From: Clostridiales bacterium
GTDB taxonomy: Bacteria > Acidobacteriota > Aminicenantia > Aminicenantales > UBA8522
Direction: 5' to 3'
Length of the DNA stretch: 64,000 nt
Assembly: GCA_029907205.1 (NCBI GenBank)
Contig: JARYMI010000016.1
Span: 959 to 64,958, forward strand
Position numbers and translations under genes: made by a program. Under the pieces are notes generated by a model that had not been told where the DNA came from, did not search any database, and saw only the letters and a program-made list of their open reading frames with translations. This document shows positions 222 to 28,494 of this stretch, in pieces. Position 1 is the stretch's first letter. Every line of letters starts with the position of its first letter.

Positions 222-248
222 AAATTGGGGACAGCATACGTAACCACC
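221..248 (+). repeat. TIR-like repeat end, left orientation (aaaattggggacagcatacgtaaccacc)
   Basis: Matches the consensus shared with 9025-9050, 18418-18446, 22321-22351 and 12998-13024. Its inverted partner is at 2066-2093. Confidence 0.75.
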
Positions 249-9050: not shown

Positions 9051-9160
9051 CTATTTTTTTCAAACGCCGTTTCTTTGTATTATAATTCTCTCTTTCCTGA
9101 TAAAGGAAAAAAATGGAACCCGCAGCCTGTCGAAGAAAGCGTGCCGGGAGGGAGAAATCA

Positions 9161-9700: not shown

Positions 9701-9888
9701 GCAACGCCGGTCACGCCGGTTCTCCTCCTTGGCAATGAGAATGTCCGTGACCCCGGTATTTATCTCCTCCTAGACTTCGCCCCGGGGCGAGAAATAGACC
9801 ATGTCCATCTCATCGCCAGCTCCGAAACGCCCGAAGCTCTTATCATCCTAAAAATAAAAAAGTAAGAAAACCGGCTGCCGCAGATTAA

Positions 9889-9931
9889 GTGAATTACGTA
9901 TGCTGTCCCCCTGAATGCTGAATGCTGAATG
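9889..9931 (-). repeat. TIR-like repeat end (right orientation) followed by tandem 7-bp repeat (ctgaatg x3)
   Basis: gtgaattacgtatgctgtcccc is the reverse complement of the consensus left end. It pairs with 9025-9050 to bracket the DUF2284 gene. Confidence 0.75.
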
Positions 9932-12997: not shown

Positions 12998-13088
12998 AAA
13001 AGTGGGGAGAGCATACTCATTTACCTTATTTTTTGGAGAAATTGTGGAGAAATAGGGTAAACGAGTATGCTGTACCCAATTTTGAAGG
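12998..13088. mobile_element. Roughly 90-bp miniature inverted-repeat element (both TIR-like ends, about 30 bp of internal sequence)
   Basis: Left end aaagtggggagagcatactcatttacc (12998-13024). Right end ggtaaacgagtatgctgtacccaattttgaagg (13056-13088), which is the reverse complement of a diverged left end. Confidence 0.65.
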
Positions 13089-14251
13089 CGGCGGCGCTGC
13101 TCCTGGCGAGCGCTCTGTTCTTTTCCCCGCTTCCTCTTTCCTCCCAGGTGTTCGATTTTCATGGCCTCGTTTCCGGCTGGGCCACAGTTTCGGGCGAAAA
13201 AGGCACACCCTTCCAGGCCGGCCTCCGCTGGCTGCCCGCTTTCTCGCTCGTCAAAACCCTTCGCGGCGAAAGCCTCCTGGACGCTGAATTATCCGTAAAC
13301 GCCCGGGGCTCGGTTAACATCCACAGCAGCGATGACATCCGCACGGACGGGAAGATTAGGCTCTACCGCGGCCAGGCCAGGTTTTCCTCGCCCCGGTTCG
13401 AGGCGAGGCTAGGTTTACAGAAAATTAGCTTCGGCTCGGCTGCTTTTCTGCGTCCGCTCATGTGGTTCGACCGCCTCGACCCGAGGGACCCGCTGCAAAT
13501 CACAGACGGCGTCTATGGCCTGCTCCTTCGGTATTATTTTCTCAACAATGCAAACGTCTGGCTGTGGGGACTCTACGGAAACGAGGACCCGAAAGGATGG
13601 GAGTTCCTTCCGACCGCGACAAAACGGCCCGAGCTGGGAGGACGTATCCAGACGCCGCTGGGCAAGGGAGAGCTTGCCCTGAGCTATCACCACCGCCGGG
13701 CCACTGTAGCAGAAAGAGAGTTATTATCACCACCACCACAACTTTCTTCTTCCTTTGCGTCCTCGAACTCAACTGCGATTCCCGAGAACCGCTATGCCCT
13801 CGACGGCAAATGGGACTTCGGCGTGGGCGTCTGGTTCGAGGCCGTCGTCATCCGTCAGCACAACGAACGTCTCCCTTATGCCCGGCAAAGGTCTTTTGTC
13901 ATCGGCGTGGATTACACTTTCGGCCTCGGAAACGGCCTCCATGTCCTCTGGGAATACTTCGAGTACACTTCCGGCGCAAACACCTGGAGCGGCGGGCAGC
14001 AGGCCCGGTTCCTTGCCGTCTCGCTCGCCCACCCCATCGGAATCCTCGACAACCTGACCGGAATCCTCTATTATGACAGAGAGAATCGTGACGTCTACAC
14101 CTTTTTCCGCTGGCAGAGGACGTACGACCGCTGGAACTTCCACCTGATGGCCTTCTGGAATCCTAAGCGCTTTCAAATCTACGGGACCGAGGCCGGCGCC
14201 AACATGTTTGCCGGAAAGGGCATCCAGGTGATGGCCGTCTTCCACTATTGA
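13067..14251 (+). CDS. Putative outer-membrane beta-barrel protein (signal peptide, C-terminal aromatic residue). Its start codon lies inside the repeat end.
   Basis: 394 aa. N-terminal MLYPILKAAALLLASALFF signal-like sequence. Alternating beta-strand pattern, ends VFHY. The first 7 codons are encoded by the repeat. Confidence 0.5.
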   Translation: MLYPILKAAALLLASALFFSPLPLSSQVFDFHGLVSGWATVSGEKGTPFQAGLRWLPAFSLVKTLRGESLLDAELSVNARGSVNIHSSDDIRTDGKIRLYRGQARFSSPRFEARLGLQKISFGSAAFLRPLMWFDRLDPRDPLQITDGVYGLLLRYYFLNNANVWLWGLYGNEDPKGWEFLPTATKRPELGGRIQTPLGKGELALSYHHRRATVAERELLSPPPQLSSSFASSNSTAIPENRYALDGKWDFGVGVWFEAVVIRQHNERLPYARQRSFVIGVDYTFGLGNGLHVLWEYFEYTSGANTWSGGQQARFLAVSLAHPIGILDNLTGILYYDRENRDVYTFFRWQRTYDRWNFHLMAFWNPKRFQIYGTEAGANMFAGKGIQVMAVFHY

Positions 14252-14270
14252 AATGGAAGGTGAACGCAAG

Positions 14271-15110
14271 ATGGAAAACGCGGCTTTGATCCAGACTAAG
14301 GACCTCGTGAAAATCTACCCGATGGGGAGCCATGAGCTCGTCGCTCTCAACAACGTGAACCTGGATTTCAAGAAAGGCGAGTTCGCCGGCCTCGTGGGAC
14401 CGAGCGGCTCTGGAAAAACGACGCTCCTCAACATCGTCGGCTCGCTCGACTCCCCTACCCGGGGAAGCGCCATCGTCATGGGAAAAAAAGTCGAGGAGCT
14501 TAGCCACAAACAGGCTGCCCGCCTCCGCAATTCGCACATCGGGTTCATCTTCCAGACGTTTAACCTCCTGCCCGTCTACACGGTCTTCGAGAATGTCGAG
14601 TTCCCGCTCCTTCTTCTCGGGTTTTCACCGGCCGAACGCAAACGCCTGGTCATGGAAGCTCTCGATTGGGTGAGGCTGGCTGATAGAGCCAGATCCAGGC
14701 CGGCTCAGCTTTCCGGCGGCGAGAGCCAGCGTGTGGCCATCGCCCGGGCCATCGTCAAGAAACCAGCCATCATCTTAGCCGACGAGCCCACGGCCAACCT
14801 CGACGCCGAGAACTCCCACAACGTCCTCCAGATTATGGAAGAGCTGAACCAAGAGACCGGAACAACCTTCATTTTCGCTACCCATGACGAAAAGGTGATC
14901 AGCTATCTGCGAAGGAAGATCACTCTGATCGACGGCAGGGTGGTCCGGGACGAGGTTATGACGCCAGAGCGCCAGCCTGAGGCAAAAGCTCAAGCCCAAG
15001 CGCAGGCGCAGGCGCAGGCTAAGCCCTCCCCGGGGCGGACCGAACAGGCTGAAGAGACAGGAGGACCGGGAGGGACGGGAACGAGAGGAGGGTCAGGAGG
15101 ACGGCGATGA
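14271..15110 (+). CDS. ABC transporter ATP-binding protein (LolD/MacB/FtsE-type) with Ala-Gln repeat and Gly-rich C-terminal tail
   Basis: Walker A GPSGSGKTT, signature LSGGESQRV, Walker B IILADEPT. Start placed at the ATG with a ggaaggtga RBS. Confidence 0.85.
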   Translation: MENAALIQTKDLVKIYPMGSHELVALNNVNLDFKKGEFAGLVGPSGSGKTTLLNIVGSLDSPTRGSAIVMGKKVEELSHKQAARLRNSHIGFIFQTFNLLPVYTVFENVEFPLLLLGFSPAERKRLVMEALDWVRLADRARSRPAQLSGGESQRVAIARAIVKKPAIILADEPTANLDAENSHNVLQIMEELNQETGTTFIFATHDEKVISYLRRKITLIDGRVVRDEVMTPERQPEAKAQAQAQAQAQAKPSPGRTEQAEETGGPGGTGTRGGSGGRR

Positions 15111-16291
15111 AGATTCTCTTCAAGCTGGCTCTCAGGAACCTGCTGGGCGCAGGGCTTCGAACCTGGCTCAACATCGCTGTCCTCTCCTTCGCTTTCGTGG
15201 CCATCATCTGGACCCAGGGTTTTTACCGGGGAATGAGCCGGCAGGCGATTCAAGCGTTGACCGACGCAGAGTACGGGGGTGGTCAGTACTGGCATGAACA
15301 ATACGACCCTTTTAACCCGCTGACACTCGACGATGCCCATGGACGTGTGCCGGAACCTTTACAGAAGCTCATCGAGGAGCGCAAGGCTACGGCTGTTCTT
15401 ATCATCCAGGGAACGCTCTATCCCCATGGCCGGTTCCTGCCTGTAACGGTCAGAGGAATCGACCCTGCTCAGGGAGTCCTCCTCTTTCCTTCGGAATTCT
15501 TGGAGACTGGTGACGGGAACGACGCAGAAATCCCCGCGATCATCGGGAGCCGCATGGCCCGGTCGACCGGCCTCAAGGTCGGCGACACCGTGACCCTGCG
15601 CTGGCGGGACGCGCGAGGCGCCTTCGATGCCCGCAATATCCGCATCGTCCAGGTCATGAGCACGACCGTCCAGTCCATCGACCAGGGGCAAATCTGGCTA
15701 TCCCTCGACACTCTCCGCTCGCTCGCCGGTATGGAGGGGGAAGCTACCCTAATTACGCTGGCAAAAGGAACACCTTTCTTGGAGGAAATCCCGGGCTGGT
15801 CCTACAAGAGCCCGGACGTACTGCTCAAGGACATTCATGACCTCGTCCGGAGCAAGACGCTCGGCGCGACGATTCTCTATATTATCCTCATCCTCCTGGC
15901 CATGCTGGCCATCTTTGACACCCAGGTGCTGTCCATCTTCCGCCGGAGAAAAGAAATGGGAACCTTGATGGCCATGGGCATGACCCGGCTGAAAATCATC
16001 CAGCTTTTCACCATCGAGGGCGCCTTGCATTCGGTGCTTGCGGCCCTTGTCGCGGCTGTCTACGGGATTCCCCTGCTCACGCTTTCTGCCCGGAGCGGGT
16101 GGGCCATGCCCCAGGCCGTAGATAGCTACGGGTATGCCATCGGCGAGAGAATCTTTCCCGTTTACAGCGCCGGGCTGGTCATTGGGACGACGGTCCTGGT
16201 CATGTTAGTCACGACTGTGGTCAGTTTCCTCCCGACGCGAAAGATATCCCGGCTCAAGCCCACCGACGCTTTGCGCGGGAGGATGCCATGA
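15107..16291 (+). CDS. ABC transporter permease, FtsX/LolC-like (4 TM plus large periplasmic loop)
   Basis: N-terminal TM, long periplasmic domain, C-terminal 3-TM FtsX-like block. Translationally coupled to the upstream ATPase. Confidence 0.7.
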   Translation: MKILFKLALRNLLGAGLRTWLNIAVLSFAFVAIIWTQGFYRGMSRQAIQALTDAEYGGGQYWHEQYDPFNPLTLDDAHGRVPEPLQKLIEERKATAVLIIQGTLYPHGRFLPVTVRGIDPAQGVLLFPSEFLETGDGNDAEIPAIIGSRMARSTGLKVGDTVTLRWRDARGAFDARNIRIVQVMSTTVQSIDQGQIWLSLDTLRSLAGMEGEATLITLAKGTPFLEEIPGWSYKSPDVLLKDIHDLVRSKTLGATILYIILILLAMLAIFDTQVLSIFRRRKEMGTLMAMGMTRLKIIQLFTIEGALHSVLAALVAAVYGIPLLTLSARSGWAMPQAVDSYGYAIGERIFPVYSAGLVIGTTVLVMLVTTVVSFLPTRKISRLKPTDALRGRMP

Positions 16292-17565
16292 TCAAGTTCC
16301 TCCTTAAGGGCATTCTCCGCGACCGTTCCCGGAGCCTTTTTCCCTTTCTGACCGTGACTATCGGCGTGATGCTCACCGTCTTTCTCTATTGCTATATCAA
16401 GGGTGCGGAGAGCAATTTCATCGAATCAAGTGCCCGTTTCTCCACAGGCCATGTGAAAATCATGTCCCGCGCTTATGCCGCCGAGGCTGACCAGATTCCC
16501 AATGACCTGGCTTATGTTGGCGTCGAATCCCTGCTCCTCGAGCTGAGGCAGGAGTTTCCGGATATGGTCTGGACTCCGAGAATCCGGTTTGGCGGGCTTT
16601 TAGACATCCCGGACGAAGCCGGGGAGACGCGCTCGCAGGGCACGGTGGCCGGGCTGGCCGTTGACCTTTTCGGGAGCGATAGCCCCGAGCGTCTCATCAT
16701 CAACATCGAGAAGGCCGTGGTGAGCGGGCATCTTCCGCGAAAACAGGGGGAAATCCTCATCAGTGCCGACCTCGCCACGACTCTCGATGTGCGGCCGGGA
16801 GACACAGCGACACTCATCGGCTCGACGATGCACGGCAGCATGGCCATAACGAATTTCACGGTCGCCGGCACAATCCGGTTCGGCGTCACGGCCATGGACC
16901 GGGGCGCCGTCCTGGCCGATATCCACGATATCCAGGAAGCCCTTGACATGGAGGATGCGGCCGGTGAAATCCTGGGGTTTTACAGAGGTTTTATTTATAA
17001 GGATAAGGACGCTGAAGATATGGCCAGCCGGTTCAATGCTCGGCACCACGGGCAGGGGGAGAGCGACGAATTCCTCCCGGTCATGGTGACGCTCAAGAAC
17101 CAGAGCGGCCTTGCCGACCTTCTGGCCATGATGGGGATGTTCTCGTCGGTCGTCGTCCTCATCTTCGTCGCCGCGATGTCCATCGTCCTCTGGAACGCCG
17201 GCCTGATGGGCTCGCTCCGGAGATACGGCGAGATCGGCGTGCGGCTGGCCATGGGCGAGGACAAGGGCCATCTCTACCGTTCCCTGATCGCCGAATCCAT
17301 GCTGATCGCCGTTTTCGGAACGATCGCCGGCACGACCGTGGGCGTGGCCATCGCCTACTACATCCAGGTCCACGGCATTGACATCAGTTCGTTCATGAAG
17401 AGCTCCTCCCTGATGGTCACCGATGTCCTGAGGGCCCAGGTGACGCCGGTGAGCTTCGTCATCGGGTTTCTTCCGGGCCTTGGCGCGACTTTCATCGGCA
17501 CCTCTATCTCAGGAATCGGCATCTACAGGCGGAAGACATCGACCCTGATGAAGGAGCTCGAATGA
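16288..17565 (+). CDS. ABC transporter permease, FtsX/LolE-like (second permease)
   Basis: Same architecture as the previous gene. Start overlaps the previous stop (ATGA). Confidence 0.7.
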   Translation: MIKFLLKGILRDRSRSLFPFLTVTIGVMLTVFLYCYIKGAESNFIESSARFSTGHVKIMSRAYAAEADQIPNDLAYVGVESLLLELRQEFPDMVWTPRIRFGGLLDIPDEAGETRSQGTVAGLAVDLFGSDSPERLIINIEKAVVSGHLPRKQGEILISADLATTLDVRPGDTATLIGSTMHGSMAITNFTVAGTIRFGVTAMDRGAVLADIHDIQEALDMEDAAGEILGFYRGFIYKDKDAEDMASRFNARHHGQGESDEFLPVMVTLKNQSGLADLLAMMGMFSSVVVLIFVAAMSIVLWNAGLMGSLRRYGEIGVRLAMGEDKGHLYRSLIAESMLIAVFGTIAGTTVGVAIAYYIQVHGIDISSFMKSSSLMVTDVLRAQVTPVSFVIGFLPGLGATFIGTSISGIGIYRRKTSTLMKELE

Positions 17566-18416
17566 TGAATCAAGGCAGGAAAAAGGCCGCTCTTGCGGAA
17601 AGGGCTAACTTTATTATTTCTATATTATTTATATATTCTATAGGAATTATAGGAAAATTGGAATCAAGCTTTTGCCTGGTTCTGGAAGGAGAGTCGGCGG
17701 CAGGGAGCAGGCAAACCTCCCTGGATAGCCAGCAAACCCCTTCGGGCGAGTGGATCTTGGGCCGCGTCGATGAAAACATCATCTCGGGGAATAAAATCAT
17801 TGCCTCTCGCATGATCATCCACGGCCGACGCGGGAGCCGCTCTATCGAGGCGAAATCGTGGATACAGGGCGAAGACAAGGCCTTCACGGAGTACCTGGCG
17901 CCAGCCCAGGAGCGGGGAACGAAGATGCTCAAGCTCGGCGACCAGTTATGGACCTACTCGCCCTCGACCGACCGGACCATCCTCATATCGGGCCACATGC
18001 TGCGGCAGTCGGTCATGGGATCAGACCTTTCCTACGAGGACATGATGGAAGAACGGAGGCTCCTCAAAATGTACGAGGCAGCGGTCATCGGTGAAGAAAC
18101 CGTGCTCGACTCTACCTGCTGGGTGTTAGAGCTTAGGGCGAAGACGCCGGACGTCGCCTATCCCTCGAGGAAAATCTGGGTGGATAAGGAGCGGTTCGTC
18201 GTCCTCAGGGAAGAGCGCTATGCCAGGAGCGGCACGCTCCTCAAGACGACCGAAGTCAAGAGCATCGTCAAGGCCCAGGGGCGATGGATTCCAGAGAGGG
18301 TCGTCTACAAGGACGCGCTCAAGGCCGGAGACGGGACGGAATTCATCGTGGATGCGATCGAGTTCGACGCCTCCATCCCTGATTATCTTTTCACCAAGGC
18401 CTCCTTGCGGAAATGA
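17562..18416 (+). CDS. LolA-like outer-membrane lipoprotein-sorting/carrier family protein
   Basis: Follows the two FtsX-like permeases. Periplasmic beta-rich roughly 250 aa body resembling LolA/DUF4292-like proteins. The exact start is uncertain because of an AT-rich N-terminal region. Confidence 0.45.
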   Translation: MMNQGRKKAALAERANFIISILFIYSIGIIGKLESSFCLVLEGESAAGSRQTSLDSQQTPSGEWILGRVDENIISGNKIIASRMIIHGRRGSRSIEAKSWIQGEDKAFTEYLAPAQERGTKMLKLGDQLWTYSPSTDRTILISGHMLRQSVMGSDLSYEDMMEERRLLKMYEAAVIGEETVLDSTCWVLELRAKTPDVAYPSRKIWVDKERFVVLREERYARSGTLLKTTEVKSIVKAQGRWIPERVVYKDALKAGDGTEFIVDAIEFDASIPDYLFTKASLRK

Positions 18417-18417
18417 C

Positions 18418-18546
18418 CAATTGGGGGACAGCATACGTAATTACCAAAATTCCGGTAGCGGAATCCAACAAAAGGCAGGCACCGCCAAAAAGACGCCGGT
18501 GCTTGCTTCAACTGATCAACAGATCGGCAGTCTGCGGCGAAAAAAA
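18418..18546 (+). repeat. Partial copy of the miniature element: left TIR-like end plus conserved internal sequence, no right end
   Basis: ccaattgggggacagcatacgtaattacc followed by ...aagacgccggtgcttgcttcaactgatcaacagatcggcagtctgcggcg. This is about 90% identical to the internal part of 22321-22488. Confidence 0.8.
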
Positions 18547-21500
18547 ATGAAAAAGAGGCTGAAGAAGGCTTTCCTCGTCCTAGGAAGCATCCTGCTGTTT
18601 TTCCTGCTGGTCATCGTCATCGCTTCCCTGCTTTTTTTCTACCGGAAGCCCCTCATCAAGAGAATCGTAGAAAAACAGGTTGAAAAGCAGACGGGAATCC
18701 GTGTCGCCGTTGGAACTCTGGATTATTGGCTGTTTCCGCTGAGGATTGAAGCTGGCTCAGTCATGTTCAAAACGAAACTAGAAGAAACAGAAGTCGATGT
18801 TTTTGTCGGGAGGCTTATACTCAGAGGCGATATCCATCGCATCAGGAAAAAGGCGAGACCCTATTTTGAATCAATCGAGGCGGAGGGCGTCCGGATTATC
18901 TCTTATGTGGGGAAGGCCCGAAAAAAGATCGCCGTCGAAGACATCCTCCATGGCTTATCTTCAGGGATGAGCTACGTCAGAAAAATAGGCCTTAGAAACT
19001 CCTCTTTTAAGTTCATTTTTTCCAAACAAGAACTATCTTTTCAAGAAGTGGAGATCACTCTGTCATCATCCTGGAATCAAGAATCTATTGCCTATACCCT
19101 GCTCTGCCAGAAGGCCCAGGGAATTTTTCAATCCAAATCAGCTCAATTCCAAAACGCGATTCAGGCGTCCGGGACCCTGTTCCCCGGGGAAAAACCGGCC
19201 ATAAAGGGCGGGTTTGTTTTCACATCGAACCGTCTCGCTTACGCTGCCAAAGAAGAATATTTCGAAAAAATCACCGTGAATTTTGATGGAGCATTCGACT
19301 GGAGCAAAGAGGAATTTATCTTTCAATCGCTACAGGTCGAAATCCCGTCCTTCACGAGCCTCACGGGATCCCTTGATATTATTCTCAAAGACGAGTTGAC
19401 CTTTTCCATTCGCCCCCGGCTCCAAGTTGAAGACCTCGGCCGATTTTATCACCTAGTTAAAGACCGTTTGCCCCGGGAGTTCGAGGGGCTGGAGCTTCAA
19501 GGCAGCGCACTTTTTGAAGGAGAGGCCCGCATAAAGCCTCCAGATCCCGGGAAAAAGCTAAGCCTCAGCGGGCTGGTTGTGCTGAACCCTTCCCGTATCA
19601 AATTTCGGACCGCCGAATATCAACTTGACTGTCCCGTTTCAGGGGATTTCAGGATCGCCAGATTCCCGGACGATCCTGAGATATCCGGCCGCCTGAAGAT
19701 TTCCGATGGCTCTTTAGCTGGAAAAGCTGTGGAAGCCCATGGAATAGGACTCGATATTCCCTTTGTTTATGACCATAAAGAATCAATACTCAACATCGCG
19801 AGTTTAAAAGCCGGCGCTTTTCGCCTGGATATTCCTTACACGAAAATAAAAACAAACACTCCTAGGTTTTTTGGGCAGGGATTTCTGGATCTTAAGAAAA
19901 AGAGGCTCCATATTTTGCGGGCAAATGTCGAGGTGGACCCTTTCCCGGTGTTTTACATCAAAGCGCAGGCCGGTCTCAGCCCTCAGGATGCCAAGTCGTT
20001 TTCCGTTAAGAGTTCACAAATCAGCTTCCAGTCAGTGATGGATTTTTTCTCTTTCGCCGTTCCAAAGAAAGTCATGGATTGGGAACCTGACGGGCGGTTG
20101 AACGTTCAAATCGAAGCTCGCCATCCTTCCGGAGAAAAGGAAAAGGGCTGGCACGTAGCGGCAGAACTTGAATCCCTCGACGTGAAATTCCATGACCCTT
20201 CCTTCACGGCGGCCGGAGAAGCTCTCCGCGCGAAGCTTACCCTGGAGGGAACCCTCCGTCGTCCTTTGAAAGAAATTCTGTTCAGGGCAAGGATGGAGCT
20301 TTACCGGGGGGAATCTCTCTGGAAGGACTTTTATGTGGACTGGAGCAGGATGCCTCTTCAGAGTACTGTGATCGGCCGGTTTGACATTCCGCAGAAAAAA
20401 CTGACAGACTTCTCCCTGGGACTGGCCATTCCTGGTTTCGGCGAGATTGATGCAACAGGCCGGCTCGATTTACAGGAACCCCGTTTCGCTGATCTAAAAG
20501 TCACGGCCTCAGCGTTTCAACTCGCCGCTCTGTCCGCTTTCTTCAACCAGAGAAGAGCAGCCGGCCAAACGCAGGGGGAATGGAAAGGCGAGGCGGAGAG
20601 CCGCGTCAATGCCAGGTTCGATAAAAACGCTCTCTCCATCCTTGGATTTCTCAGGGTGAAGGATACGTCATGGACCGATGAAGCCAGGAATTTGGCAATA
20701 CAGGGAATAGAGGCGCATCTCCCTGTGCATTACGATTCTAAACCCAGATACGGAGAGGCGGATATCCCTTCTCCGGAAGACGGATATCTCCATGTGCAAA
20801 AAATTCGTGCTCCCTATCTGGACCTGTCGTCGCTGAGGCTGGACATCAAAGGCAGAAGAAACGGCTACTCGATCCAGCCTTTCGCGCTCGAGATATTCGG
20901 CGAGGAGGCCAGGGTGGGCGAGATATCTATCGAGTACCGGTCCAACCCGTCGGATTTTAAGGCTCTGACTTCGTTTTCCTGGATGGACGGAGATCTTTCC
21001 CAGGCTCCGTTTTCCTCCCGGGATTTCCAGCTCGAAGGAAAGTTATCCCTGGATCTTCCTCGTGTCGCAATCTCGCCGGACCTCGTGTCGACCGAGGGCG
21101 TAGCCAGGGCAAACGCATTCGGAGGAACGATCGCCATCAAAAACATCCAGATGGAAAGACCGTTCACCAAAAACAGGACGATTTCCTGCGATGTCGCGTT
21201 AGCGGAACTGGACCTTGAAAAAATCACGGATTCGATCCCGTTCGGCCGCGTCACGGGAATCATCAACGGAGAAATCCAGGACCTTGCCCTGTCCTACGGG
21301 CAGCCCGAACGCTTTGACATCCGTATCGAATCGGAAAGGAGAAAGGGAGTTCAGCAGAGATTCAGCGTGAAGGCCACAGACGATCTGACCATTCTCGGCA
21401 CGGGCGAAAGAACGGCCTTGTCTTCCCGGAGCGGATGGACCCGATTCGTCCGAGAATTCAGATATGACAAAATCGGGATCGCGTGTTCCTTGAAAAACGA

Positions 21501-21669
21501 CATCTTCTCTCTTCAGGGAACGATCTGGAGGAACGGAGTCGAATATCTCGTCAGAGGAACCGGCCTTTTCGCCATTAACGTGGTGAACAAACAGGCCCGG
21601 AATCAAATCCGTTTCAAGGATATGCTGAACCGGCTCCAGAGAATAGGCCAATCAAAACAATCCCCATGA
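18547..21669 (+). CDS. ydbH: AsmA-family/YdbH-like large inner-membrane-anchored protein (putative inter-membrane lipid transport)
   Basis: N-terminal signal-anchor MKKRLKKAFLVLGSILLFFLLVIV, then about 1000 aa of beta-rich sequence. It lies immediately upstream of a YnbE/YdbL-like gene, as in the E. coli ydbH-ynbE-ydbL operon. The ORF-track start at 18220 reads through the repeat and is rejected. Confidence 0.6.
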   Translation: MKKRLKKAFLVLGSILLFFLLVIVIASLLFFYRKPLIKRIVEKQVEKQTGIRVAVGTLDYWLFPLRIEAGSVMFKTKLEETEVDVFVGRLILRGDIHRIRKKARPYFESIEAEGVRIISYVGKARKKIAVEDILHGLSSGMSYVRKIGLRNSSFKFIFSKQELSFQEVEITLSSSWNQESIAYTLLCQKAQGIFQSKSAQFQNAIQASGTLFPGEKPAIKGGFVFTSNRLAYAAKEEYFEKITVNFDGAFDWSKEEFIFQSLQVEIPSFTSLTGSLDIILKDELTFSIRPRLQVEDLGRFYHLVKDRLPREFEGLELQGSALFEGEARIKPPDPGKKLSLSGLVVLNPSRIKFRTAEYQLDCPVSGDFRIARFPDDPEISGRLKISDGSLAGKAVEAHGIGLDIPFVYDHKESILNIASLKAGAFRLDIPYTKIKTNTPRFFGQGFLDLKKKRLHILRANVEVDPFPVFYIKAQAGLSPQDAKSFSVKSSQISFQSVMDFFSFAVPKKVMDWEPDGRLNVQIEARHPSGEKEKGWHVAAELESLDVKFHDPSFTAAGEALRAKLTLEGTLRRPLKEILFRARMELYRGESLWKDFYVDWSRMPLQSTVIGRFDIPQKKLTDFSLGLAIPGFGEIDATGRLDLQEPRFADLKVTASAFQLAALSAFFNQRRAAGQTQGEWKGEAESRVNARFDKNALSILGFLRVKDTSWTDEARNLAIQGIEAHLPVHYDSKPRYGEADIPSPEDGYLHVQKIRAPYLDLSSLRLDIKGRRNGYSIQPFALEIFGEEARVGEISIEYRSNPSDFKALTSFSWMDGDLSQAPFSSRDFQLEGKLSLDLPRVAISPDLVSTEGVARANAFGGTIAIKNIQMERPFTKNRTISCDVALAELDLEKITDSIPFGRVTGIINGEIQDLALSYGQPERFDIRIESERRKGVQQRFSVKATDDLTILGTGERTALSSRSGWTRFVREFRYDKIGIACSLKNDIFSLQGTIWRNGVEYLVRGTGLFAINVVNKQARNQIRFKDMLNRLQRIGQSKQSP

Positions 21670-21736
21670 CCGGGTTCCGTGATTTTGCTATACTAATAAA
21701 ATGAGAAAAATGAGCTTTTCAGGAAGGGAGGTCGCC

Positions 21737-22312
21737 ATGCGAAAATTTTCGCCTGTGTTCACAATTTTCATCATCCTGTTTGTTCTGGCCATTGCCTGCG
21801 TGACCATCAACATCTATTTTCCTGAGGCGGCCGTGCAAAAAACGGCGGAGGAGATCGTGGACGAGGTGAGAAAATCCGGGCAGGAAGGCAAAAAAAAGGA
21901 GGAAAAGAGTGTGAGCCAATCCGCCTTCTCTCTCATTCCCGCTGTGTATGCACAGGAAGAGGAAACGGTCTCCACCCCGAAAATCCGCGCCCTGAAGCAA
22001 TCCCTGAAGGACAAAGAACCCCTCCTCAAGCCCTTCTTCGATCAGGGCCATATCGGAGAAGCCAACAACGGGATGATCCAGATCCGCAGCGAGGAGGGCC
22101 TCTCCCTGAAGGATAAAGCGGAATTGAGGCGCCTGACGAAAGAAGTAAACAGCGAAAGGGAAACTCTGTACGCGGAGGTTGCCAAAGCGTTAAACATCGA
22201 AGAAAGCCAGGTTCCGAGGATACAGAAAATATTCGCCAGACGCTGGATCGAAAACAGCCCTCCCGGCTGGTGGATTCAAAACGATGACGGAGAATGGATC
22301 AGGAAACAATAA
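21737..22312 (+). CDS. Fused YnbE-like lipoprotein N-region plus YdbL (DUF1318) C-domain
   Basis: N-terminus LAIACVTINIYF resembles the YnbE lipoprotein core. C-terminus ...ENSPPGWWIQNDDGEWIRKQ matches the DUF1318/YdbL C-terminal signature. RBS gaagggagg present. Confidence 0.55.
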   Translation: MRKFSPVFTIFIILFVLAIACVTINIYFPEAAVQKTAEEIVDEVRKSGQEGKKKEEKSVSQSAFSLIPAVYAQEEETVSTPKIRALKQSLKDKEPLLKPFFDQGHIGEANNGMIQIRSEEGLSLKDKAELRRLTKEVNSERETLYAEVAKALNIEESQVPRIQKIFARRWIENSPPGWWIQNDDGEWIRKQ

Positions 22313-22320: not shown

Positions 22321-22488
22321 AATTGATCGGGTGACAGCATACATAATTACCAAATTTCCAAAAGAGAGATTCAACAAACGGTGGGCATCGCCAAGAAGAC
22401 GCCGGTGCTTGCTTCGACTGATCAACAGATCGGCAGTCTGCGGCGCAAAAAATTAAGGTAATTATGTATGGCGTCCCCAATTTTGAGG
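22321..22488. mobile_element. Complete roughly 168-bp miniature inverted-repeat element (MITE-like) with about 30-bp TIRs
   Basis: Left end aattgatcgggtgacagcatacataattacc (22321-22351). Right end ggtaattatgtatggcgtccccaattttgagg (22457-22488) is its reverse complement. The internal roughly 105 bp is shared with 18447-18546. Confidence 0.85.
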
Positions 22489-23889
22489 CGATTTTTCAAG
22501 CCCGGAAACATCATGGTCGACCGGGACGGCCAGGCGCGGATCATGGATTTCGGGATCGCCCGCTCGCTCAAGGGCAAGGGCATCACCGGTGCCGGAATGA
22601 TGATCGGGACGCCGGAATACATGTCGCCCGAGCAGGTCGAGGGCAAGGAGGTCGACGAGCGGTCGGACATCTATTCTCTCGGCGTCATTCTTTATGAAAT
22701 GGTGGCGGGGCGGGTGCCGTTCGAAGGCGAAACTCCTTTCACGGTCGGCGTGAAACACAAGAGCGAAGTTCCCCGGCCGCCCAAAGAGCTCAACGTCCAG
22801 ATTCCCGAGAGCCTCAACCAGGTGGTTTTGAAATGCCTGGAAAAAGACAAAGATAGGCGGTATCAAAGCGCCACAGAACTGAAAGGGGAATTAGGGCTGA
22901 TCGCAGAGGGAATGCCGGCTGCGGCGAAAGCGATTCCAAAGAGGAAGGCATTCACGTCCAGAGAAATTACAGTAACCGTGGGAGTGAAAAAGCTCGTCGT
23001 TCCCGCAGTCGCTCTCGTCGCCCTTGTTGTTCTGGCCGCCGTCCTCTGGCGTATCATCCCGAAAAGGAAGGCGTTGCCAATCCCAACGGACAGACCTTCT
23101 ATCGCCGTCATGTATTTCAAAAACAACGCGGGCGATTCGGGGCTCAACCACTGGCAGACCATGCTACCCAACCTGCTCGTCACCGACCTCACCCAATCGA
23201 GGTTCATTCGCGTCCTGAGCGAGGACAGACTCGGTCAAACCGTATGGGTGAGAGGCTTACTGATCGGTTTATCTTACCTTGAGCGAACTTCAGGACGTCC
23301 GGAAGCCGCCCTGGTAGAGCTGGATAAAGCCTGGACCAGCGCGGTCGCGGAAGACAGCTTGTGGGATCAAAGAGATATTCTGCTCAGTCAGGGGCTGGCG
23401 CATCTGGCGATGAAATCCATACGCCAAGCCCAAGATGTGACCGCCAAGCTGGAGGCGGCGGTCGCCCAGGCGCCCAACAAAAAACTCATCTGGTACTCTC
23501 ACTATCTGATGGGGATGATCGAGCTGGAAAAAAAGAACTATGCCAGGGCTATTGAACTGTTCAAGCTGGGATTGCCTTTGTTGGACGCGGATTCAGGAAA
23601 TCGCCTTTTATTTGCTGACGCAACGGGCACGGCCTTTTATGAATCGGGTGATCTCAACAGCGCTCGGCAGGAGTATCAGAGAATCATTTCTATGAATATC
23701 GGCAGGTTTGATTACGGCGACATCTATGCCAAAGCCCATTACCAACTTGGAAAAATCAGCGAACAGCAAGGAAAAAAGGCCGAGGCCGGAGAGCATTACC
23801 GGAAATTCCTTTTCCTCTGGAAGGATGCCGACTCCGGCCTGCCCGAAGTCGAGGACGCTCGCAAATCGCTGGCTCGTCTTCAGCCGTGA
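22468..23889 (+). pseudogene. 5'-truncated Hanks-type Ser/Thr kinase with TM segment and TPR domain. The ATP-binding lobe is missing and the first 7 codons come from the repeat end. Possibly expressed as a dead pseudokinase.
   Basis: The ORF begins MASPILR (repeat-encoded). It then runs FKPGNIMV...DFGIA...TPEYMSPE, which are kinase subdomains VIb to VIII. The glycine loop, VAIK lysine, alphaC glutamate and HRD are absent. A TM helix and TPR-like repeats follow. Confidence 0.7.
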
Positions 23890-24782: not shown

Positions 24783-24803
24783 AAGCTCTGGGCAATCTTT
24801 TCC

Positions 24804-27800
24804 CTACTTCTTGACGCGGACCGGAAAGGGAGGCCGCCGAAGCTTTGGCGGCGGGTTCTTCTTGAGCAGGTCCATGACGACCTCGATCGCTTTCTCGAGT
24901 TGAGGATCGCGGCCGGCTATCATGTCAGCGGGCGTAATCTCCACCTCGATATCCGGCGGAACTCCCTCGTTCTCCACCACCCAGCCGTCTTCTGTCCAGA
25001 TGGCCAGGTTCGGTGCGGTCACCACTCCTCCATCCATGAGCACGGGGAATCCAAGCGTCCCAACCAACCCTCCCCACGTGCGCTTCCCGATAAGCGGGCC
25101 GAGGCCGAACTTGCGGAACATCCAGGGCAGCAAGTCTCCTCCCGAGCCGGCAGTCTCGTTGATAAGCATGACTTTCGGCCCCTGGATGGATGCACTCGGC
25201 GTTTTCAAATCAGCGCCGTAACGCATGGCCCACATGGAGATATAGGGCTTTCGCAGGTGGTCGATGTAGTAATCCGCCACCTGGCCGCCGCCGTTATGCC
25301 TCTCGTCGACGATGATGGCATCCTTGTGGGCCTGGGGGAAGAAATAGCGCTTGAAGTACACATGGCCTAAGGTCGACGTGTTTGGGACATAGACATAGGC
25401 GACGCGCCCTCCTGTCGCCTCCTCGACTTTCCTAAGGTTTCCCTCGACCCAGTCCCTGTTTCGTAGAGCGGCCTCGTTGGCGATGGGCACAACCTCAACG
25501 GTTCTTGAACCTGTGCCGTCCGGTGCAGGTCCGACGGTGATTTCTATTATTTTTTCAGCCGTGTTCTCGAGGGCGCTGAAGAGGTTCACAGGCGGCCGCA
25601 GATCCTTGCCGTTAACGGCGAGGAGATATTCCCCTGCCTTGACATCCACTCCAGGCTCAGTCAGGGGCGAACGGAGCTCGGGATTCCAGTTCAGCCCTCC
25701 ATAGACTTTCTTGAACCGATAGCGGCCGTTGGCGATTTCGTAATCGGCGCCAAGAAGCCCAACCGGCACGCTCTTCGGCTCAGCGAAGGAATCTCCTCCG
25801 CCGACCCGGTGATGGCCAACCGCGAGCTCGCTACACATCCACTGAATAAGCCTGTTGAGGTCGCTCCGGCAGGAAAGATGGGGCAAAAACTCAGCATATT
25901 TTTCCTTCATGGCTTTCCAGTTGCAGCCGTGCATGTTGGGATCGTAAAAATAATCGCGGTTTATGCGCCAGGCCTCATGGAAAATTTGCGGCCACTCCAC
26001 TCGGGGGTTAATCTTGACTTCAATACTATCGACGTTAATTTTACCCTGTCCGGACTGGATTTTCCCCGAAAGCGCAACTATCCCCCAGGTTTCCCTCGAG
26101 ACATAGAGCATCTTCTTCTTGTCTGCAGAGAGAATGTACCCGTTGATGCCTTCCATCACAATTTCATCCTTGCGCGTCTTCAGGTCGAATTTATGCAGCT
26201 TTGCACCTTCTGCTCCCGGCCCAAAAGCGCTGATGGCCCGGGGGGGATATTCTAAATAATAAACATGACCAGACTCGCCAACCTGAAGGTTGCGGTAACT
26301 CCCTGCGCTCACGGGAATGGCCACAATCCTCTGATTGATCCCTTCAAAATCAATGGAAACGGCCTCTTCTTTTTTCTTTGCCGGCGCTGGCTCGGTTTTT
26401 GCCTCTTTCCCAACCTGCGCGGCTTTTTCTTCTCTGGCCTTTTCTTTGTTGGCTTTTTCCTCGATGATTCCCTTCTCTTCATCGCTTTCCTTGGCCAGAG
26501 GGTTGGGCAGATCTTTCTTCAGGACAGCCATGTAGAGAGAGTTCGTCAGGGTCATGTCGGCATTCGACATATCAAACCATTGTTTCACCGGGCCAGCGTC
26601 GGTCGAAGAGAAAAAGTAGAGGTATTTACCGCCCGGGTCAAACACAGGCTCGCTGACCTCGCTCAACCCGTCCGTGACAGCGAAAGACTTATCTTTCTCG
26701 AGAGAATAAACATAAACCTTCTGGATGTAGGCCTGGGTGTTGAGGGTGTAAACAATCCATCTGGAATCGGGCGCCCAGGAGGAATAGACGCTGCGAATTC
26801 GCGTCGGGCCGTAAAGATATTCGGAGCCAATCTTTTTAGAAACGCCAGTTTTCAGGTCAATCCAATAAAGGCTCCAGGAATTGTCGGCATAGGAGATTTT
26901 CTGGCTATCGGGAGACCAGACAGGGGCATCATAAAAACCGGCACCGCTGAGCTTATATTTTTTCACTTCTCCCTTGCCGTCTTGACTGCGCACGTGGAGC
27001 TCGTACTCCCCGGATTCATCGGAAAAATAGGCGATGGCTTTCCCGTCCGGAGACCATGCCGGAGAGCGCTCATGGACGCCAGGGGTCAAGGTGATGTTCC
27101 GGAAATCGCCCTTTTCGGCGGGAAGCGTGATGATCTCGCCGCGGAACTCGAAAACCGCTCTCGCGCCCGTGGGAGAGATGGAAGCATTTCGGATATAGCG
27201 AGCGCCTTTGACGAACCTTTCGCGGATCTCGAGGAGGTCAGCGGCCACGCCGATCGTAAGCCTGGAGCTTTTTTGCGCCTGCGGGTCGAAGATATGGAGG
27301 TATCCTCCCTGTTCGTAGATGATTTTTCCGGCGCCGCAGGAAGCGCTGACGATGGGGAAATCTTCGTGGCGCGTGAGCTGCTGGATCCTCTTCGTTTTCG
27401 TATCATAAGAGAAAAGGTTGAACTCTCCGTTCCGGTCTGACCTGAAATAAATCTTGTCTCCGATCCACATCGGGTTGACATCGTTTGAGCGTCCTTCGGG
27501 CTGAGGAATTTCTTCGACGCTGTGGTCACGCCGGTTATAGATCAAGATAGTCGATGCCTGGCCGCCGCGGTAATTTTTCCACTGGACAAAGGCATCGGCC
27601 AGGGGGTTATAGGCGATCCGTGTTCCATCTGGCGAATAGGCCGCCCGAAAGACATAGGGAATTTCAAGCTGCTCGGGGAAGCCTCCCTCGACAGGAACCG
27701 TGAAAAGATGATTCCATGCTCGGGTGAAGGCATAGCGGGCCGAGGTAAAAAGAACAGATTTCCCATCGGGCGTGAACCCCTGAACCATATCAGGATAGGG

Positions 27801-28136
27801 ATGCCAGGTGAGCCGCCTGGGAATGCCCCCTTCAGCGGAAAGGATGTAAACATCCGTGTTTCCCTCGTACTGGGCGCTGAAGGCAATCCATTTTCCATCC
27901 GGGGAGAAAACCGGGTTGGATTCCAGGCCAAGGTCGGATGTCAGCTTGCGGGGGTTTTTCCCGTCTGTGTCCGCCGTCCAGAGGTCGCCGGCATAGGCAA
28001 AGGCAATCGCCGTTGCGCTTAGGGCCGGCTGGCTCAAAAACACCGTGTCCTTTGTATCGATGGCTGGAAGGAAAAGAGTGGCGGATAAGAACATGGTTGA
28101 GAAGAAAGCGAAAAACGAAAGAATTCTGGACTTCAT
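24804..28136 (-). CDS. Tricorn protease homolog (S41B): TolB-like beta-propellers, PDZ and S41 peptidase domain, secreted
   Basis: About 1110 aa. N-terminal signal. Repeated SP[DA]G(KR)xIAF propeller motifs. C-terminal S41 region with an RNGGG-type motif. Start set at MKSRIL, which has an aaggagg RBS. Confidence 0.8.
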   Translation of the reverse strand: MKSRILSFFAFFSTMFLSATLFLPAIDTKDTVFLSQPALSATAIAFAYAGDLWTADTDGKNPRKLTSDLGLESNPVFSPDGKWIAFSAQYEGNTDVYILSAEGGIPRRLTWHPYPDMVQGFTPDGKSVLFTSARYAFTRAWNHLFTVPVEGGFPEQLEIPYVFRAAYSPDGTRIAYNPLADAFVQWKNYRGGQASTILIYNRRDHSVEEIPQPEGRSNDVNPMWIGDKIYFRSDRNGEFNLFSYDTKTKRIQQLTRHEDFPIVSASCGAGKIIYEQGGYLHIFDPQAQKSSRLTIGVAADLLEIRERFVKGARYIRNASISPTGARAVFEFRGEIITLPAEKGDFRNITLTPGVHERSPAWSPDGKAIAYFSDESGEYELHVRSQDGKGEVKKYKLSGAGFYDAPVWSPDSQKISYADNSWSLYWIDLKTGVSKKIGSEYLYGPTRIRSVYSSWAPDSRWIVYTLNTQAYIQKVYVYSLEKDKSFAVTDGLSEVSEPVFDPGGKYLYFFSSTDAGPVKQWFDMSNADMTLTNSLYMAVLKKDLPNPLAKESDEEKGIIEEKANKEKAREEKAAQVGKEAKTEPAPAKKKEEAVSIDFEGINQRIVAIPVSAGSYRNLQVGESGHVYYLEYPPRAISAFGPGAEGAKLHKFDLKTRKDEIVMEGINGYILSADKKKMLYVSRETWGIVALSGKIQSGQGKINVDSIEVKINPRVEWPQIFHEAWRINRDYFYDPNMHGCNWKAMKEKYAEFLPHLSCRSDLNRLIQWMCSELAVGHHRVGGGDSFAEPKSVPVGLLGADYEIANGRYRFKKVYGGLNWNPELRSPLTEPGVDVKAGEYLLAVNGKDLRPPVNLFSALENTAEKIIEITVGPAPDGTGSRTVEVVPIANEAALRNRDWVEGNLRKVEEATGGRVAYVYVPNTSTLGHVYFKRYFFPQAHKDAIIVDERHNGGGQVADYYIDHLRKPYISMWAMRYGADLKTPSASIQGPKVMLINETAGSGGDLLPWMFRKFGLGPLIGKRTWGGLVGTLGFPVLMDGGVVTAPNLAIWTEDGWVVENEGVPPDIEVEITPADMIAGRDPQLEKAIEVVMDLLKKNPPPKLRRPPFPVRVKK

Positions 28137-28494
28137 GCCAGCCTCCTTAAGAAAAATTTGTGTTAAACATACACATATGCCTCCAATTATATGCATATTA
28201 CGGTTTATGTCCACAAAGCGTTTGCCCTCAAATTTGCCGATAACGATTAGGCGTCAGTAAAAACGGCTTGGCTTTTAAAAGAATTCAGATGGTCCTAACA
28301 TATACTGCGAAATATATAAAGATTGATTCCGGATATATGGGGCAATTGGTGGAGTGGCCGGAATTTGAGCGGCTATGGGCATCACTCAAGGGCTTCAAAT
28401 AATCGTTCCAAAGAGACCGGTAAAAATCCTTCGAAAGCAAGGGATGGGCCGGCGCTTCCTGACACAAATGGGACAAATCAAATAAAGAGGGAGG

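What the first reader, a model, noticed from the sequence alone, without database searches (positions are those of the whole stretch)
18547..22312. AsmA-like ydbH module with a fused ynbE-ydbL gene
A roughly 1040-aa signal-anchored beta-rich AsmA/YdbH-like protein is followed by a 191-aa ORF. The N-terminus of that ORF looks like the small lipoprotein YnbE and the C-terminus like YdbL (DUF1318). This reproduces the E. coli ydbH-ynbE-ydbL phospholipid-transport operon, but with two genes fused into one. The whole module is bounded by copies of the repeat element. It sits directly after a Lol-like ABC/FtsX/LolA cluster, suggesting an envelope-lipid trafficking island.
Basis: partly seen in the sequence, partly recalled or inferred. 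Interest (0 to 1): 0.55.

Follow-up and report, generated by a model that had tools for sequence, protein, structure and literature searches.

The report
AsmA-like bridge gene with fused lipoprotein–YdbL partner
This is a two-gene module for a probable lipid bridge between the two membranes of a Gram-negative-type cell, in which the small outer-membrane lipoprotein partner and its YdbL-type helper domain are joined into one protein; the joined form is widespread in public genomes but has apparently not been described.

Summary
Window 18547-21669 encodes a 1040-aa, N-terminally anchored, almost all-beta protein. Window 21737-22312 encodes a 191-aa protein. A 127-nt repeat flanks the pair, and a Lol-like cluster lies upstream.

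- The large protein belongs to the AsmA-like clan. Its closest family is DUF748 (45 bits, cut-off 50). It is not a YdbH-family member.
- The C-terminal half of the small protein is a true YdbL/DUF1318 domain (Pfam 69.6 bits; TM 0.87 to the E. coli YdbL crystal structure).
- The N-terminal part is a lipoprotein signal followed by a very conserved module, C-VTINIYFPEAAV..AEEIVDEVR. This module shows no significant similarity to YnbE (Pfam, hhalign, shuffle test).
- In Betaproteobacteria the same module is a separate ~60-aa lipoprotein gene. It sits between an AsmA-like gene and a separate, signal-peptide-bearing DUF1318 gene, with an ATGA overlap. The window gene is therefore a genuine fusion of a YnbE-positioned lipoprotein with YdbL.

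The fusion is not special to this window. It occurs in Aminicenantes, Desulfobacterota, Methylomirabilales and some Gammaproteobacteria. A homologue of the large gene was found in 84 of 87 related loci. The Lol-like neighbourhood is not conserved. The repeats are genome-specific intergenic elements that mark synteny breakpoints.

Verdict: a new variant of a known kind, of moderate interest.

The parts
18420..18546 (+). Copy 1 of a genome-specific dispersed repeat. It has the left end GGGGACAGCATACGTAATTACC and lacks the right inverted end. It fills the whole spacer between the LolA-like stop (18416) and the large gene's ATG.
   Evidence: Homology to the closest relative L083 begins exactly at 18547.
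18547..21669 (+). Gene for a 1040-aa inner-membrane-anchored AsmA-like (repeating beta-groove type) protein. Its closest Pfam family is DUF748.
18568..18639 (+). N-terminal hydrophobic signal-anchor (about aa 8-31) of the large protein.
   Evidence: Sequence; AF2 helix 2-49.
20992..21645 (+). C-terminal domain (about aa 816-1033) of the large protein. It is conserved in all partner large proteins, of both fused and split operons, and has no Pfam family. It is the inferred docking site for the lipoprotein strand.
21726..21731 (+). Shine-Dalgarno-like GGGAGG, 5 nt before the small gene's ATG.
21737..22312 (+). Gene for the 191-aa fused lipoprotein-DUF1318 protein.
21737..21799 (+). Lipoprotein signal peptide and lipobox (aa 1-21, ...LAIA-C21). 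The Cys is invariant in homologues.
21797..21874 (+). Strand-plus-acidic-helix module (aa 21-46, CVTINIYFPEAAVQKTAEEIVDEVRK). It is the most conserved part of the protein. In Betaproteobacteria it is a separate ~60-aa lipoprotein gene.
21875..21964 (+). Lys/Glu-rich disordered linker (aa 47-76). It ends in the conserved FSLIPAVYAQ, which aligns with the signal-peptide cleavage site of stand-alone DUF1318 proteins.
21965..22309 (+). YdbL-type DUF1318 domain (aa 77-191).
   Evidence: Pfam; Foldseek to the YdbL crystal 28oj; BLASTP to E. coli YdbL.
22326..22484 (+). Copy 2 of the repeat, complete with both inverted ends (MITE-like hairpin, z = -4.2). Its right end runs into a truncated kinase ORF.
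   Evidence: Homology to L083 stops at 22325.

Best explanation
The two genes encode an intermembrane bridge of the AsmA-like type, the class thought to carry phospholipid from the inner to the outer membrane.

- The 1040-aa protein is anchored in the inner membrane by its N-terminal helix. It extends a long beta-groove across the periplasm.
- The 191-aa protein is exported and lipidated on Cys21, and is probably sorted to the outer membrane.
- Its first mature residues (VTINIYF) are inferred to add as a beta strand to the open C-terminal end of the groove. YnbE does this with YdbH in E. coli.
- The acidic helix that follows (AEEIVDEV) is inferred to sit in the conserved basic pocket of the protein's own C-terminal YdbL-type domain. 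A ~30-residue flexible linker tethers that domain.
- The fusion would fix helper to lipoprotein at 1:1. That would prevent runaway self-association of the strand and avoid the toxicity of excess free YdbL seen in E. coli.

Shown here: domain identities, gene fusion versus split, lipobox, and co-occurrence with the large gene.
Inferred: strand augmentation, helix docking in cis, outer-membrane location, and lipid as cargo.
For: Large protein:
- All 33 homologues hit DUF748 (best E 5e-13). Some also hit TamB, YhdP or AsmA.
- AF2 gives a TM helix plus about 55 beta strands.
- Foldseek hits the Vps13 N-terminal fragment (prob 1.0), ApoB100 and LptD.

Small protein, C-terminal domain:
- DUF1318 at 69.6 bits.
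- The AF2 domain superposes on E. coli YdbL 28oj with TM 0.87 and rmsd 2.1.
- Residues essential in E. coli YdbL (E35, N58, R61, Y65, I79, W104, K107; PMC13464000) align with identical window residues E108, N138, R141, Y145, I162, W187, K190. Of these, E108, N138, R141, Y145 and W187 are invariant; I162 and K190 are at least 90% conserved.

Small protein, N-terminal module:
- Invariant Cys after a hydrophobic leader with A or S at -1 in the close homologues aligned (A, S or G across the wider family). The lipobox pattern was met in 122 of 138 motif-bearing representatives.
- Helix 30-48 reaches pLDDT 91 for residues 31-40, next to a linker below 50.
- The module is 76% identical between this window and a gammaproteobacterial homologue, against 38% for the best aligned segment of the protein.

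Fusion versus split:
- A profile of the module finds 699 cluster representatives. Many are about 55-85 aa.
- In Nitrogeniibacter mangrovi and in metagenome contigs, the ~60-aa lipoprotein gene lies between a ~640-aa homologue of the large protein and a separate DUF1318 gene with its own signal peptide. The junction is an ATGA overlap.
- The fused linker's AYAQ aligns with that signal peptide's cleavage site.

Co-occurrence: a homologue of the large protein is present in 84 of 87 related loci.

E. coli precedent for strand augmentation, helix-pocket binding and YdbL dosage toxicity: PMC11126948 and PMC13464000.
Against: - There is no detectable sequence homology between the N-terminal module and YnbE. 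PF13617 gives no hit at E<=10. hhalign probability is 0.6-28%, and the aligned segments cover only the leader or a 5-mer. Pairwise scores are no better than shuffles, p = 0.2-0.5.
- There is no detectable similarity between the large protein, or its C-terminal domain, and E. coli YdbH.
- The DUF748 hit is below Pfam's gathering score (45.1 against 50).
- AF2 did not predict a strand for VTINIYF in the monomer. I could not read contacts from the model, so cis-docking of the helix is not verified.
- E. coli sorting rules for lipoproteins may not hold in this phylum.
- No experiment exists for any member of this subfamily.
Confidence: 0.68

Rival explanations
1. The N-terminal part is only a lipid anchor and tether. 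It places a YdbL-like domain at a membrane and does not itself join the bridge. Any YnbE-like partner would be missing or encoded elsewhere.
For: No significant similarity to YnbE. AF2 predicts no strand for residues 22-28 in the monomer.
Against: The module is the most conserved part of the protein across phyla: 76% against 38% for the best aligned segment of the protein. A mere tether would not be. It also exists as an independent ~60-aa gene product, always in the YnbE position. No other small lipoprotein gene lies in the module.
Confidence: 0.15
2. The module is a true but very diverged YnbE homologue and the large protein a diverged YdbH. The whole operon would then be orthologous to ydbH-ynbE-ydbL.
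For: Same gene order. Same layout of lipobox, short alternating strand ([IV]TIN[IM]) and acidic helix (KA.D..[VI]..[DE]). DUF1318 is shared with significant scores. Both YdbH and the window protein touch the same region of the DUF748 profile weakly.
Against: Every statistical test of homology for the lipoprotein and for the large protein failed. The YnbE alignment available was of low diversity (Neff 1.8), so the test is weak rather than decisive.
Confidence: 0.3
3. The module is cargo of a mobile element bounded by the repeats, and forms a lipid-trafficking island with the Lol-like cluster.
For: Direct 127-nt repeats flank it exactly. Synteny with the closest relative begins and ends at the repeat edges.
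Against: The closest relative (L083) has the same module, next to the same Tricorn protease gene, without any repeat. So the module is resident and the repeats and flanking genes moved around it. The repeat is found at five or more intergenic sites in the window and carries no transposase. FtsX genes are absent from all 87 related loci, and a LolA-like gene is in only one.
Confidence: 0.04
4. The 191-aa ORF is an assembly or frameshift artefact that joins two real genes.
For: In split operons the two genes overlap by ATGA, so one indel would join them.
Against: 812 homologues were found, and all 120 listed cover at least 83% of the query at similar length. 80 genome loci from several phyla carry the fusion. 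The linker is conserved in sequence.
Confidence: 0.01

Closest known systems
E. coli YdbH-YnbE-YdbL intermembrane bridge (PMC11126948, PMC13464000)
   Same: Same gene order: large inner-membrane-anchored AsmA-like protein, then small lipoprotein, then DUF1318. The DUF1318 domain is homologous and has the same fold. The YdbL residues needed for YnbE binding are conserved. The lipoprotein has a short strand-like segment followed by an acidic helix.
   Different: The lipoprotein and DUF1318 are one polypeptide, so the YdbL-like domain is tethered rather than free in the periplasm. The lipoprotein module is not detectably related to YnbE (PF13617). The large protein is not in the YdbH family, is closest to DUF748, is 1040 aa rather than 879 aa, and has its own unclassified C-terminal domain.
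Split operons of the same subfamily in Betaproteobacteria (e.g. Nitrogeniibacter mangrovi CP048836.1, lipoprotein WP_173764563.1; Nitrotoga, Chitinivorax)
   Same: The large protein has a homologous C-terminal domain (E 1e-14 to 1e-16). The CVTINIYFPAA..AADKIIDEV module is the same. The DUF1318 subfamily is the same (39% identity).
   Different: There are three genes instead of two. The DUF1318 protein has its own cleavable signal peptide. The large protein is about 640 aa. All three are annotated as hypothetical or DUF1318 only.
DUF748 (PF05359) and other AsmA-like clan families (TamB, YhdP, AsmA)
   Same: N-terminal anchor and long beta-rich periplasmic region. Sequence hits of E 5e-12 (window) and 5e-13 (best homologue) to DUF748. 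Weaker hits to TamB, YhdP and AsmA in homologues.
   Different: The score is below the DUF748 gathering threshold. The outer-membrane partner is a small lipoprotein, not a barrel such as TamA.

Membership tests
AsmA-like clan / repeating beta-groove lipid-transfer proteins | N-terminal transmembrane anchor | tested here: met
   Hydrophobic stretch at aa 8-31. AF2 helix 2-49.
AsmA-like clan / repeating beta-groove lipid-transfer proteins | Long, almost all-beta periplasmic region of groove type | tested here: inconclusive
AsmA-like clan / repeating beta-groove lipid-transfer proteins | HMM match to a clan family above the curated cut-off | tested here: inconclusive
   DUF748 at 45.1 bits, E 5e-12, against a cut-off of 50. 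All 33 homologues match DUF748 at E<=1e-3; 8 match TamB, 6 YhdP and 1 AsmA.
YdbH family (PF11739 / NF007971) | HMM match to the YdbH-like model | tested here: not met
   No hit for the window protein or for 10 partner proteins from other phyla. E. coli YdbH scores 970 bits as a positive control.
YdbH family (PF11739 / NF007971) | Profile similarity to E. coli YdbH | tested here: not met
   hhalign probability 0.2% for the full length and 3% for the C-terminal domain. BLASTP E 0.56.
YdbH family (PF11739 / NF007971) | Operon with a small lipoprotein and a DUF1318 protein | tested here: met
   Present as a fusion here and as three genes in Betaproteobacteria.
YdbL / DUF1318 (PF07027) | HMM match above the gathering score | tested here: met
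   69.6 bits against 27, residues 94-190, profile positions 5-92 of 92.
YdbL / DUF1318 (PF07027) | Fold of the solved YdbL structure | tested here: met
   Foldseek to 28oj: E 1.3e-5, TM 0.87 (target-normalised), rmsd 2.1 over 95 columns. Domain pLDDT 90-98.
YdbL / DUF1318 (PF07027) | Conservation of residues required for YnbE binding and function (R61, Y65, I79, plus E35, N58, W104, K107) | tested here: met
   Aligned as R141, Y145, I162, E108, N138, W187, K190. Five are invariant; I162 and K190 are at least 90% conserved. Residue list from PMC13464000.
YdbL / DUF1318 (PF07027) | Free periplasmic protein with its own cleavable signal peptide | tested here: not met
   The domain is internal, at residues 77-191 of a lipoprotein. 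Only a remnant of the cleavage site (AYAQ) remains.
YnbE family (PF13617, Lipoprotein_19) | HMM match to the YnbE-like model | tested here: not met
   No hit at E<=10 for the window N-terminus or for 10 stand-alone relatives. E. coli YnbE scores 59 bits as a positive control.
YnbE family (PF13617, Lipoprotein_19) | Profile-profile or pairwise similarity to YnbE | tested here: not met
   hhalign aligns only the signal peptide (prob 28%) or the 5-mer TIN motif (prob 0.6%). Smith-Waterman against 5000 shuffles gives p = 0.21-0.48. The YnbE alignment was enterobacterial only.
YnbE family (PF13617, Lipoprotein_19) | Lipobox with lipidated Cys | tested here: met
   Invariant Cys21. A or S at -1 in the homologues aligned (A, S or G across the wider family). 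The lipobox pattern (as recalled from PROSITE) holds for the window and for 122 of 138 motif-bearing representatives. Lipidation itself is not testable here.
YnbE family (PF13617, Lipoprotein_19) | Gene between the AsmA-like gene and the DUF1318 gene | tested here: met
   Seen in split operons L082, L085 and L086. In the window the module occupies the same position within the fused ORF.
YnbE family (PF13617, Lipoprotein_19) | Beta strand that augments the bridge, then an acidic helix bound by YdbL | not testable with these tools
   Helix 30-48 is predicted with pLDDT about 91 for residues 31-40. No strand is predicted in the monomer. No multimer prediction or contact read-out was available.

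The most novel reading that the evidence does not exclude
The fused protein is a self-chaperoned precursor. The YdbL-type domain holds the lipoprotein's helix in cis during export and sorting. It is then released, or cut off, at the strictly conserved signal-peptidase-like A-x-A-Q site in the linker once the N-terminal strand has docked on the bridge. More broadly, the triad of AsmA-like protein, CVTINIYFP lipoprotein and DUF1318 would be an ancient, phylum-spanning form of outer-membrane lipid bridge, of which enterobacterial YdbH-YnbE-YdbL is one diverged branch.
Probability: 0.15. Interest if true: 0.75.

Novelty: new variant of a known kind. Interest (0 to 1): 0.5.

Why it matters
In E. 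coli it is still open whether YdbL acts transiently on YnbE or stays as part of the YdbH-YnbE bridge, and why its dosage is so critical (PMC13464000).

A natural fusion of the lipoprotein partner to YdbL, kept across several phyla, bears on both questions.
- It is independent 'Rosetta-stone' evidence that the two proteins act together, one to one.
- It shows that permanent tethering is compatible with function.
- It extends the triad of DUF1318, small lipoprotein and AsmA-like protein beyond the YdbH family, to DUF748-like proteins in Acidobacteriota, Desulfobacterota, Methylomirabilota and Proteobacteria.
- It defines an unannotated small-lipoprotein family (CVTINIYFP...) that annotation pipelines currently call hypothetical.

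The window itself is one ordinary member of this group.

Tried and rejected
1. YnbE homology of the N-terminus was tested with the Pfam PF13617 scan, hhalign of two alignments against an enterobacterial YnbE alignment, and Smith-Waterman against 5000 shuffles. All were negative.
2. YdbH homology of the large protein was tested with BLASTP, Pfam, NCBIfam, and hhalign of the full-length and C-terminal alignments. All were negative.
3. A PDB sequence-profile search with the large-protein alignment gave only one chance hit.
5. I tested whether an internal translation start in the linker makes a free, secreted DUF1318. There is no conserved in-frame ATG/GTG/TTG with a Shine-Dalgarno motif across 80 loci, so this is rejected.
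6. I tested whether the flanking repeat is a known RNA. Rfam gives no match at E<=1.
7. Promoter and terminator consensus scans around the module found no more sites than shuffles.
8. I tested whether the Lol-like cluster travels with the module. It does not.
9. Representatives of 90-230 aa that match the N-terminal profile but lack a DUF1318 domain: all eight that I inspected are frameshifted or chimeric metagenome calls. I did not count this class as a third architecture.


Full report
WHAT IS THERE

The mechanical ORF list shows a + strand ORF from 18220 to 21669. Homologues all begin MKKKLKK..., which places the real start at 18547 and gives 1040 aa. A second + strand ORF follows after a 67-nt spacer. 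Its start at 21737 is preceded by GGGAGG, and it ends at 22312, giving 191 aa. The finding's coordinates are therefore exact.

The large protein is 100% identical to a GenBank MAG protein labelled 'Clostridiales bacterium'. Every close relative of both genes comes from Aminicenantes or Acidobacteriota MAGs, so that label is probably wrong.

THE LARGE PROTEIN

Sequence evidence:
- Pfam gives only DUF748, a member of the AsmA-like clan, at 45.1 bits and E 5e-12. This is just under the gathering score of 50. The two matched stretches lie at the N-terminus and mid-protein.
- All 33 full-length homologues match DUF748 at E<=1e-3. Eight also match TamB, six YhdP and one AsmA.
- Nothing matches the YdbH-like model PF11739 or NCBIfam NF007971. 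Both score E. coli YdbH at 970 and 1401 bits.
- BLASTP and hhalign against E. coli YdbH are at chance.

Structure evidence:
- The AF2 model has mean pLDDT 76.7. It consists of one N-terminal helix (2-49) followed by about 55 long strands.
- Foldseek against the PDB returns lipid-carrying beta structures: the Vps13 N-terminal fragment (prob 1.0), ApoB100 and LptD.

I conclude that the protein belongs to the AsmA-like clan but is not a YdbH-family member.

THE SMALL PROTEIN, C-TERMINAL HALF

- Residues 94-190 match DUF1318 at 69.6 bits against a cut-off of 27.
- The AF2 domain (pLDDT 90-98) superposes on the E. coli YdbL crystal structure 28oj with target-normalised TM 0.87 and rmsd 2.1 Å.
- BLASTP to E. 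coli YdbL gives E 3e-14.
- The residues that De'Ath et al. found essential or important for YdbL function and YnbE binding are E35, N58, R61, Y65, I79, W104 and K107 (PMC13464000). They align with identical window residues E108, N138, R141, Y145, I162, W187 and K190.
- Of these, five are invariant in the family; I162 and K190 are at least 90% conserved.

This half is a true YdbL-type domain with its helix-binding surface intact.

THE SMALL PROTEIN, N-TERMINAL HALF

After a hydrophobic leader comes an invariant Cys21 with Ala or Ser at -1 in the homologues aligned. The leader satisfies the classical lipobox pattern, as do 122 of 138 motif-bearing cluster representatives.

The next 25 residues, CVTINIYFPEAAVQKTAEEIVDEVR, are the most conserved part of the protein. 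They are 76% identical between this window and a gammaproteobacterial homologue, whose best aligned segment is only 38% identical.

AF2 predicts a helix for residues 30-48, with pLDDT about 91 for residues 31-40. A disordered Lys/Glu-rich linker follows at 48-76.

IS THE N-TERMINAL MODULE YnbE?

By sequence, no.
- The Pfam YnbE model does not hit the window N-terminus or ten stand-alone relatives, even at E<=10.
- hhalign against an enterobacterial YnbE alignment pairs only the signal peptide, or the five residues [VI]TIN[IM].
- Local alignment scores are no better than composition-matched shuffles, p = 0.21-0.48.

The eye-catching parallels are [IV]TIN[IM] and KA.D..V..E. They are real but not statistically distinguishable from chance. 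The available YnbE alignment was of low diversity, so remote homology is not excluded.

IS IT A FUSION OF TWO GENES?

Yes.

I searched 1.84 billion cluster representatives with a profile of residues 17-75. It found 699 matches. Of the best 150:
- 56 carry the DUF1318 domain;
- 67 are 51-84 aa, and the 48 retrieved read ...ACVTINIYFPAAAAEKAADKIIDEVWQ plus a short polar tail; at least a few of this size class are contig-end or frameshifted fragments;
- the rest are 90-230 aa, and the eight inspected are frameshifted or chimeric calls.

In the complete genome of Nitrogeniibacter mangrovi, the 62-aa lipoprotein gene lies between two genes. Upstream is a 639-aa ORF whose product is homologous to the window's large protein. 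Downstream is a separate 138-aa DUF1318 gene with its own signal peptide. Metagenome contigs show the same three genes.

The lipoprotein stop and the DUF1318 start overlap as ATGA. One indel would therefore join them.

The fused protein's conserved ...PAVYA|Q aligns residue for residue with the cleavage site ...SLALA|Q of the stand-alone DUF1318. The linker is the former polar tail plus the remnant of a signal peptide. That remnant argues for fusion rather than fission, but I did not test the direction phylogenetically.

HOW COMMON IS THE FUSION?

- 812 homologues were found, and the 120 listed are nearly all full-length matches of about 190-210 aa.
- 80 genome loci carry the fusion. They come from Aminicenantes, Terriglobales, Syntrophorhabdia, Desulfovibrionia, Methylomirabilales and several Gammaproteobacteria.
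- A homologue of the large protein is present in 84 of 87 related loci. Two of the three exceptions are contig ends.
- What is shared across all of them is the C-terminal ~210 residues of the large protein. This domain has no Pfam family.

Public annotation calls the fused protein 'YdbL family' or 'DUF1318' and calls the stand-alone lipoprotein 'hypothetical'. I found no paper that mentions the fusion.

HOW IT PROBABLY WORKS

The E. coli work shows three things (PMC11126948, PMC13464000):
- YnbE adds a strand to the C-terminal groove of YdbH.
- YnbE's acidic C-terminal helix binds a basic pocket of YdbL.
- YdbL restrains YnbE self-association and is toxic in excess.

The window module has the same parts in the same order. 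I therefore infer the same roles: VTINIYF as the docking strand, AEEIVDEV as the helix held by the protein's own DUF1318 domain, and the fusion as a way to fix the ratio at 1:1. Only the parts list, their conservation and their co-occurrence are shown here. The contacts are inferred.

THE SURROUNDINGS

The repeats:
- The 127-nt repeats are real. They belong to a genome-specific, MITE-like family whose inverted ends are GGGGACAGCATACGTAATTACC.
- The family has copies at five or more intergenic sites in the window. It is absent from all related loci held at the time of that search.

Comparison with the closest relative (L083, module DNA 84% identical):
- DNA homology starts exactly at 18547 and stops at 22325. 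It resumes at the Tricorn protease gene, 24800-28213.
- The module is therefore resident. The repeats, a truncated kinase-TPR gene and a hydrolase gene have been inserted or rearranged around it.

The Lol-like cluster:
- It is next to the module only here. No FtsX gene was found in the other loci, and a LolA-like gene was found in only one, about 6 kb downstream on the opposite strand.
- Two relatives show unrelated neighbours.
- L083 keeps a 176-bp remnant of the cluster's first gene.

There is no conserved 'island'.

VERDICT

The family labels are too specific, and the case is not unique to this window. It is one member of a widespread, undescribed variant of the AsmA-like bridge systems.

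Noticed in passing
window 223-255, 9025-9060, 9884-9910 (-), 13000-13075, 18420-18546, 22326-22484: A genome-specific dispersed repeat with inverted ends GGGGACAGCATACGTAATTACC (6 matches against 0 expected). Forms range from a ~75-nt hairpin to a 159-nt MITE-like copy. It is absent from all related loci held at the time of that search and has no Rfam match.
   Followed up: partly
window 18547 and 22325, against L083 10001-13785: DNA homology with the closest relative starts and stops exactly at the inner edges of the two repeat copies. The repeats therefore mark rearrangement or insertion junctions. Copy 1 replaces the whole native upstream region of the large gene.
   Followed up: partly
window 22468-23889 (+): A Ser/Thr kinase-TPR ORF lacks the N-terminal lobe (it matches Pkinase profile positions 124-253 only). 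Its first codons lie inside the right inverted end of repeat copy 2, so it is probably a truncated remnant.
   Followed up: partly
window 13067-18416 (+): A five-gene cluster with 4-nt overlaps between its last four genes: a 394-aa protein with no Pfam family (possibly an outer-membrane barrel), a LolD-like ABC ATPase, two FtsX permeases and a LolA_like protein (198 bits). A 176-bp remnant of the first gene survives in L083 (4318-4493).
   Followed up: partly
window 9029-9910: A pair of inverted repeat ends encloses a 195-aa Cys-rich ORF (9113-9700) rather than a transposase.
   Followed up: no
window 21920-21955 (aa 62-73 of the small protein): A hydrophobic stretch plus A-x-A-Q in the linker is conserved in every phylum that has the fusion. 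It aligns with the signal-peptide cleavage site of stand-alone DUF1318 proteins. Why it has not decayed is unexplained. An internal start codon was ruled out.
   Followed up: partly
L082 6001-6189 (Nitrogeniibacter mangrovi WP_173764563.1); also Nitrotoga, Chitinivorax, Methylotenera: A family of ~60-aa lipoproteins (ACVTINIYFPAAAAEKAADKIIDEVWQ...) is annotated only as hypothetical. It has no Pfam or NCBIfam model. In the two contexts examined (Nitrogeniibacter mangrovi and one set of metagenome contigs) it sits between an AsmA-like gene and a DUF1318 gene.
   Followed up: yes
whole window: The contig is deposited as 'Clostridiales bacterium' (locus tag QHH14_08175), and many related MAGs are labelled 'uncultured Eubacteriales'. 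The gene content (AsmA-like, lipoprotein sorting, outer-membrane genes) and all close relatives point to Aminicenantes/Acidobacteriota. The label is probably a taxonomic mislabel.
   Followed up: no
window 24804-28214 (-): A 1136-aa Tricorn-type protease gene is syntenic with L083 (86% DNA identity). It is the only conserved neighbour of the module in the closest relative.
   Followed up: no
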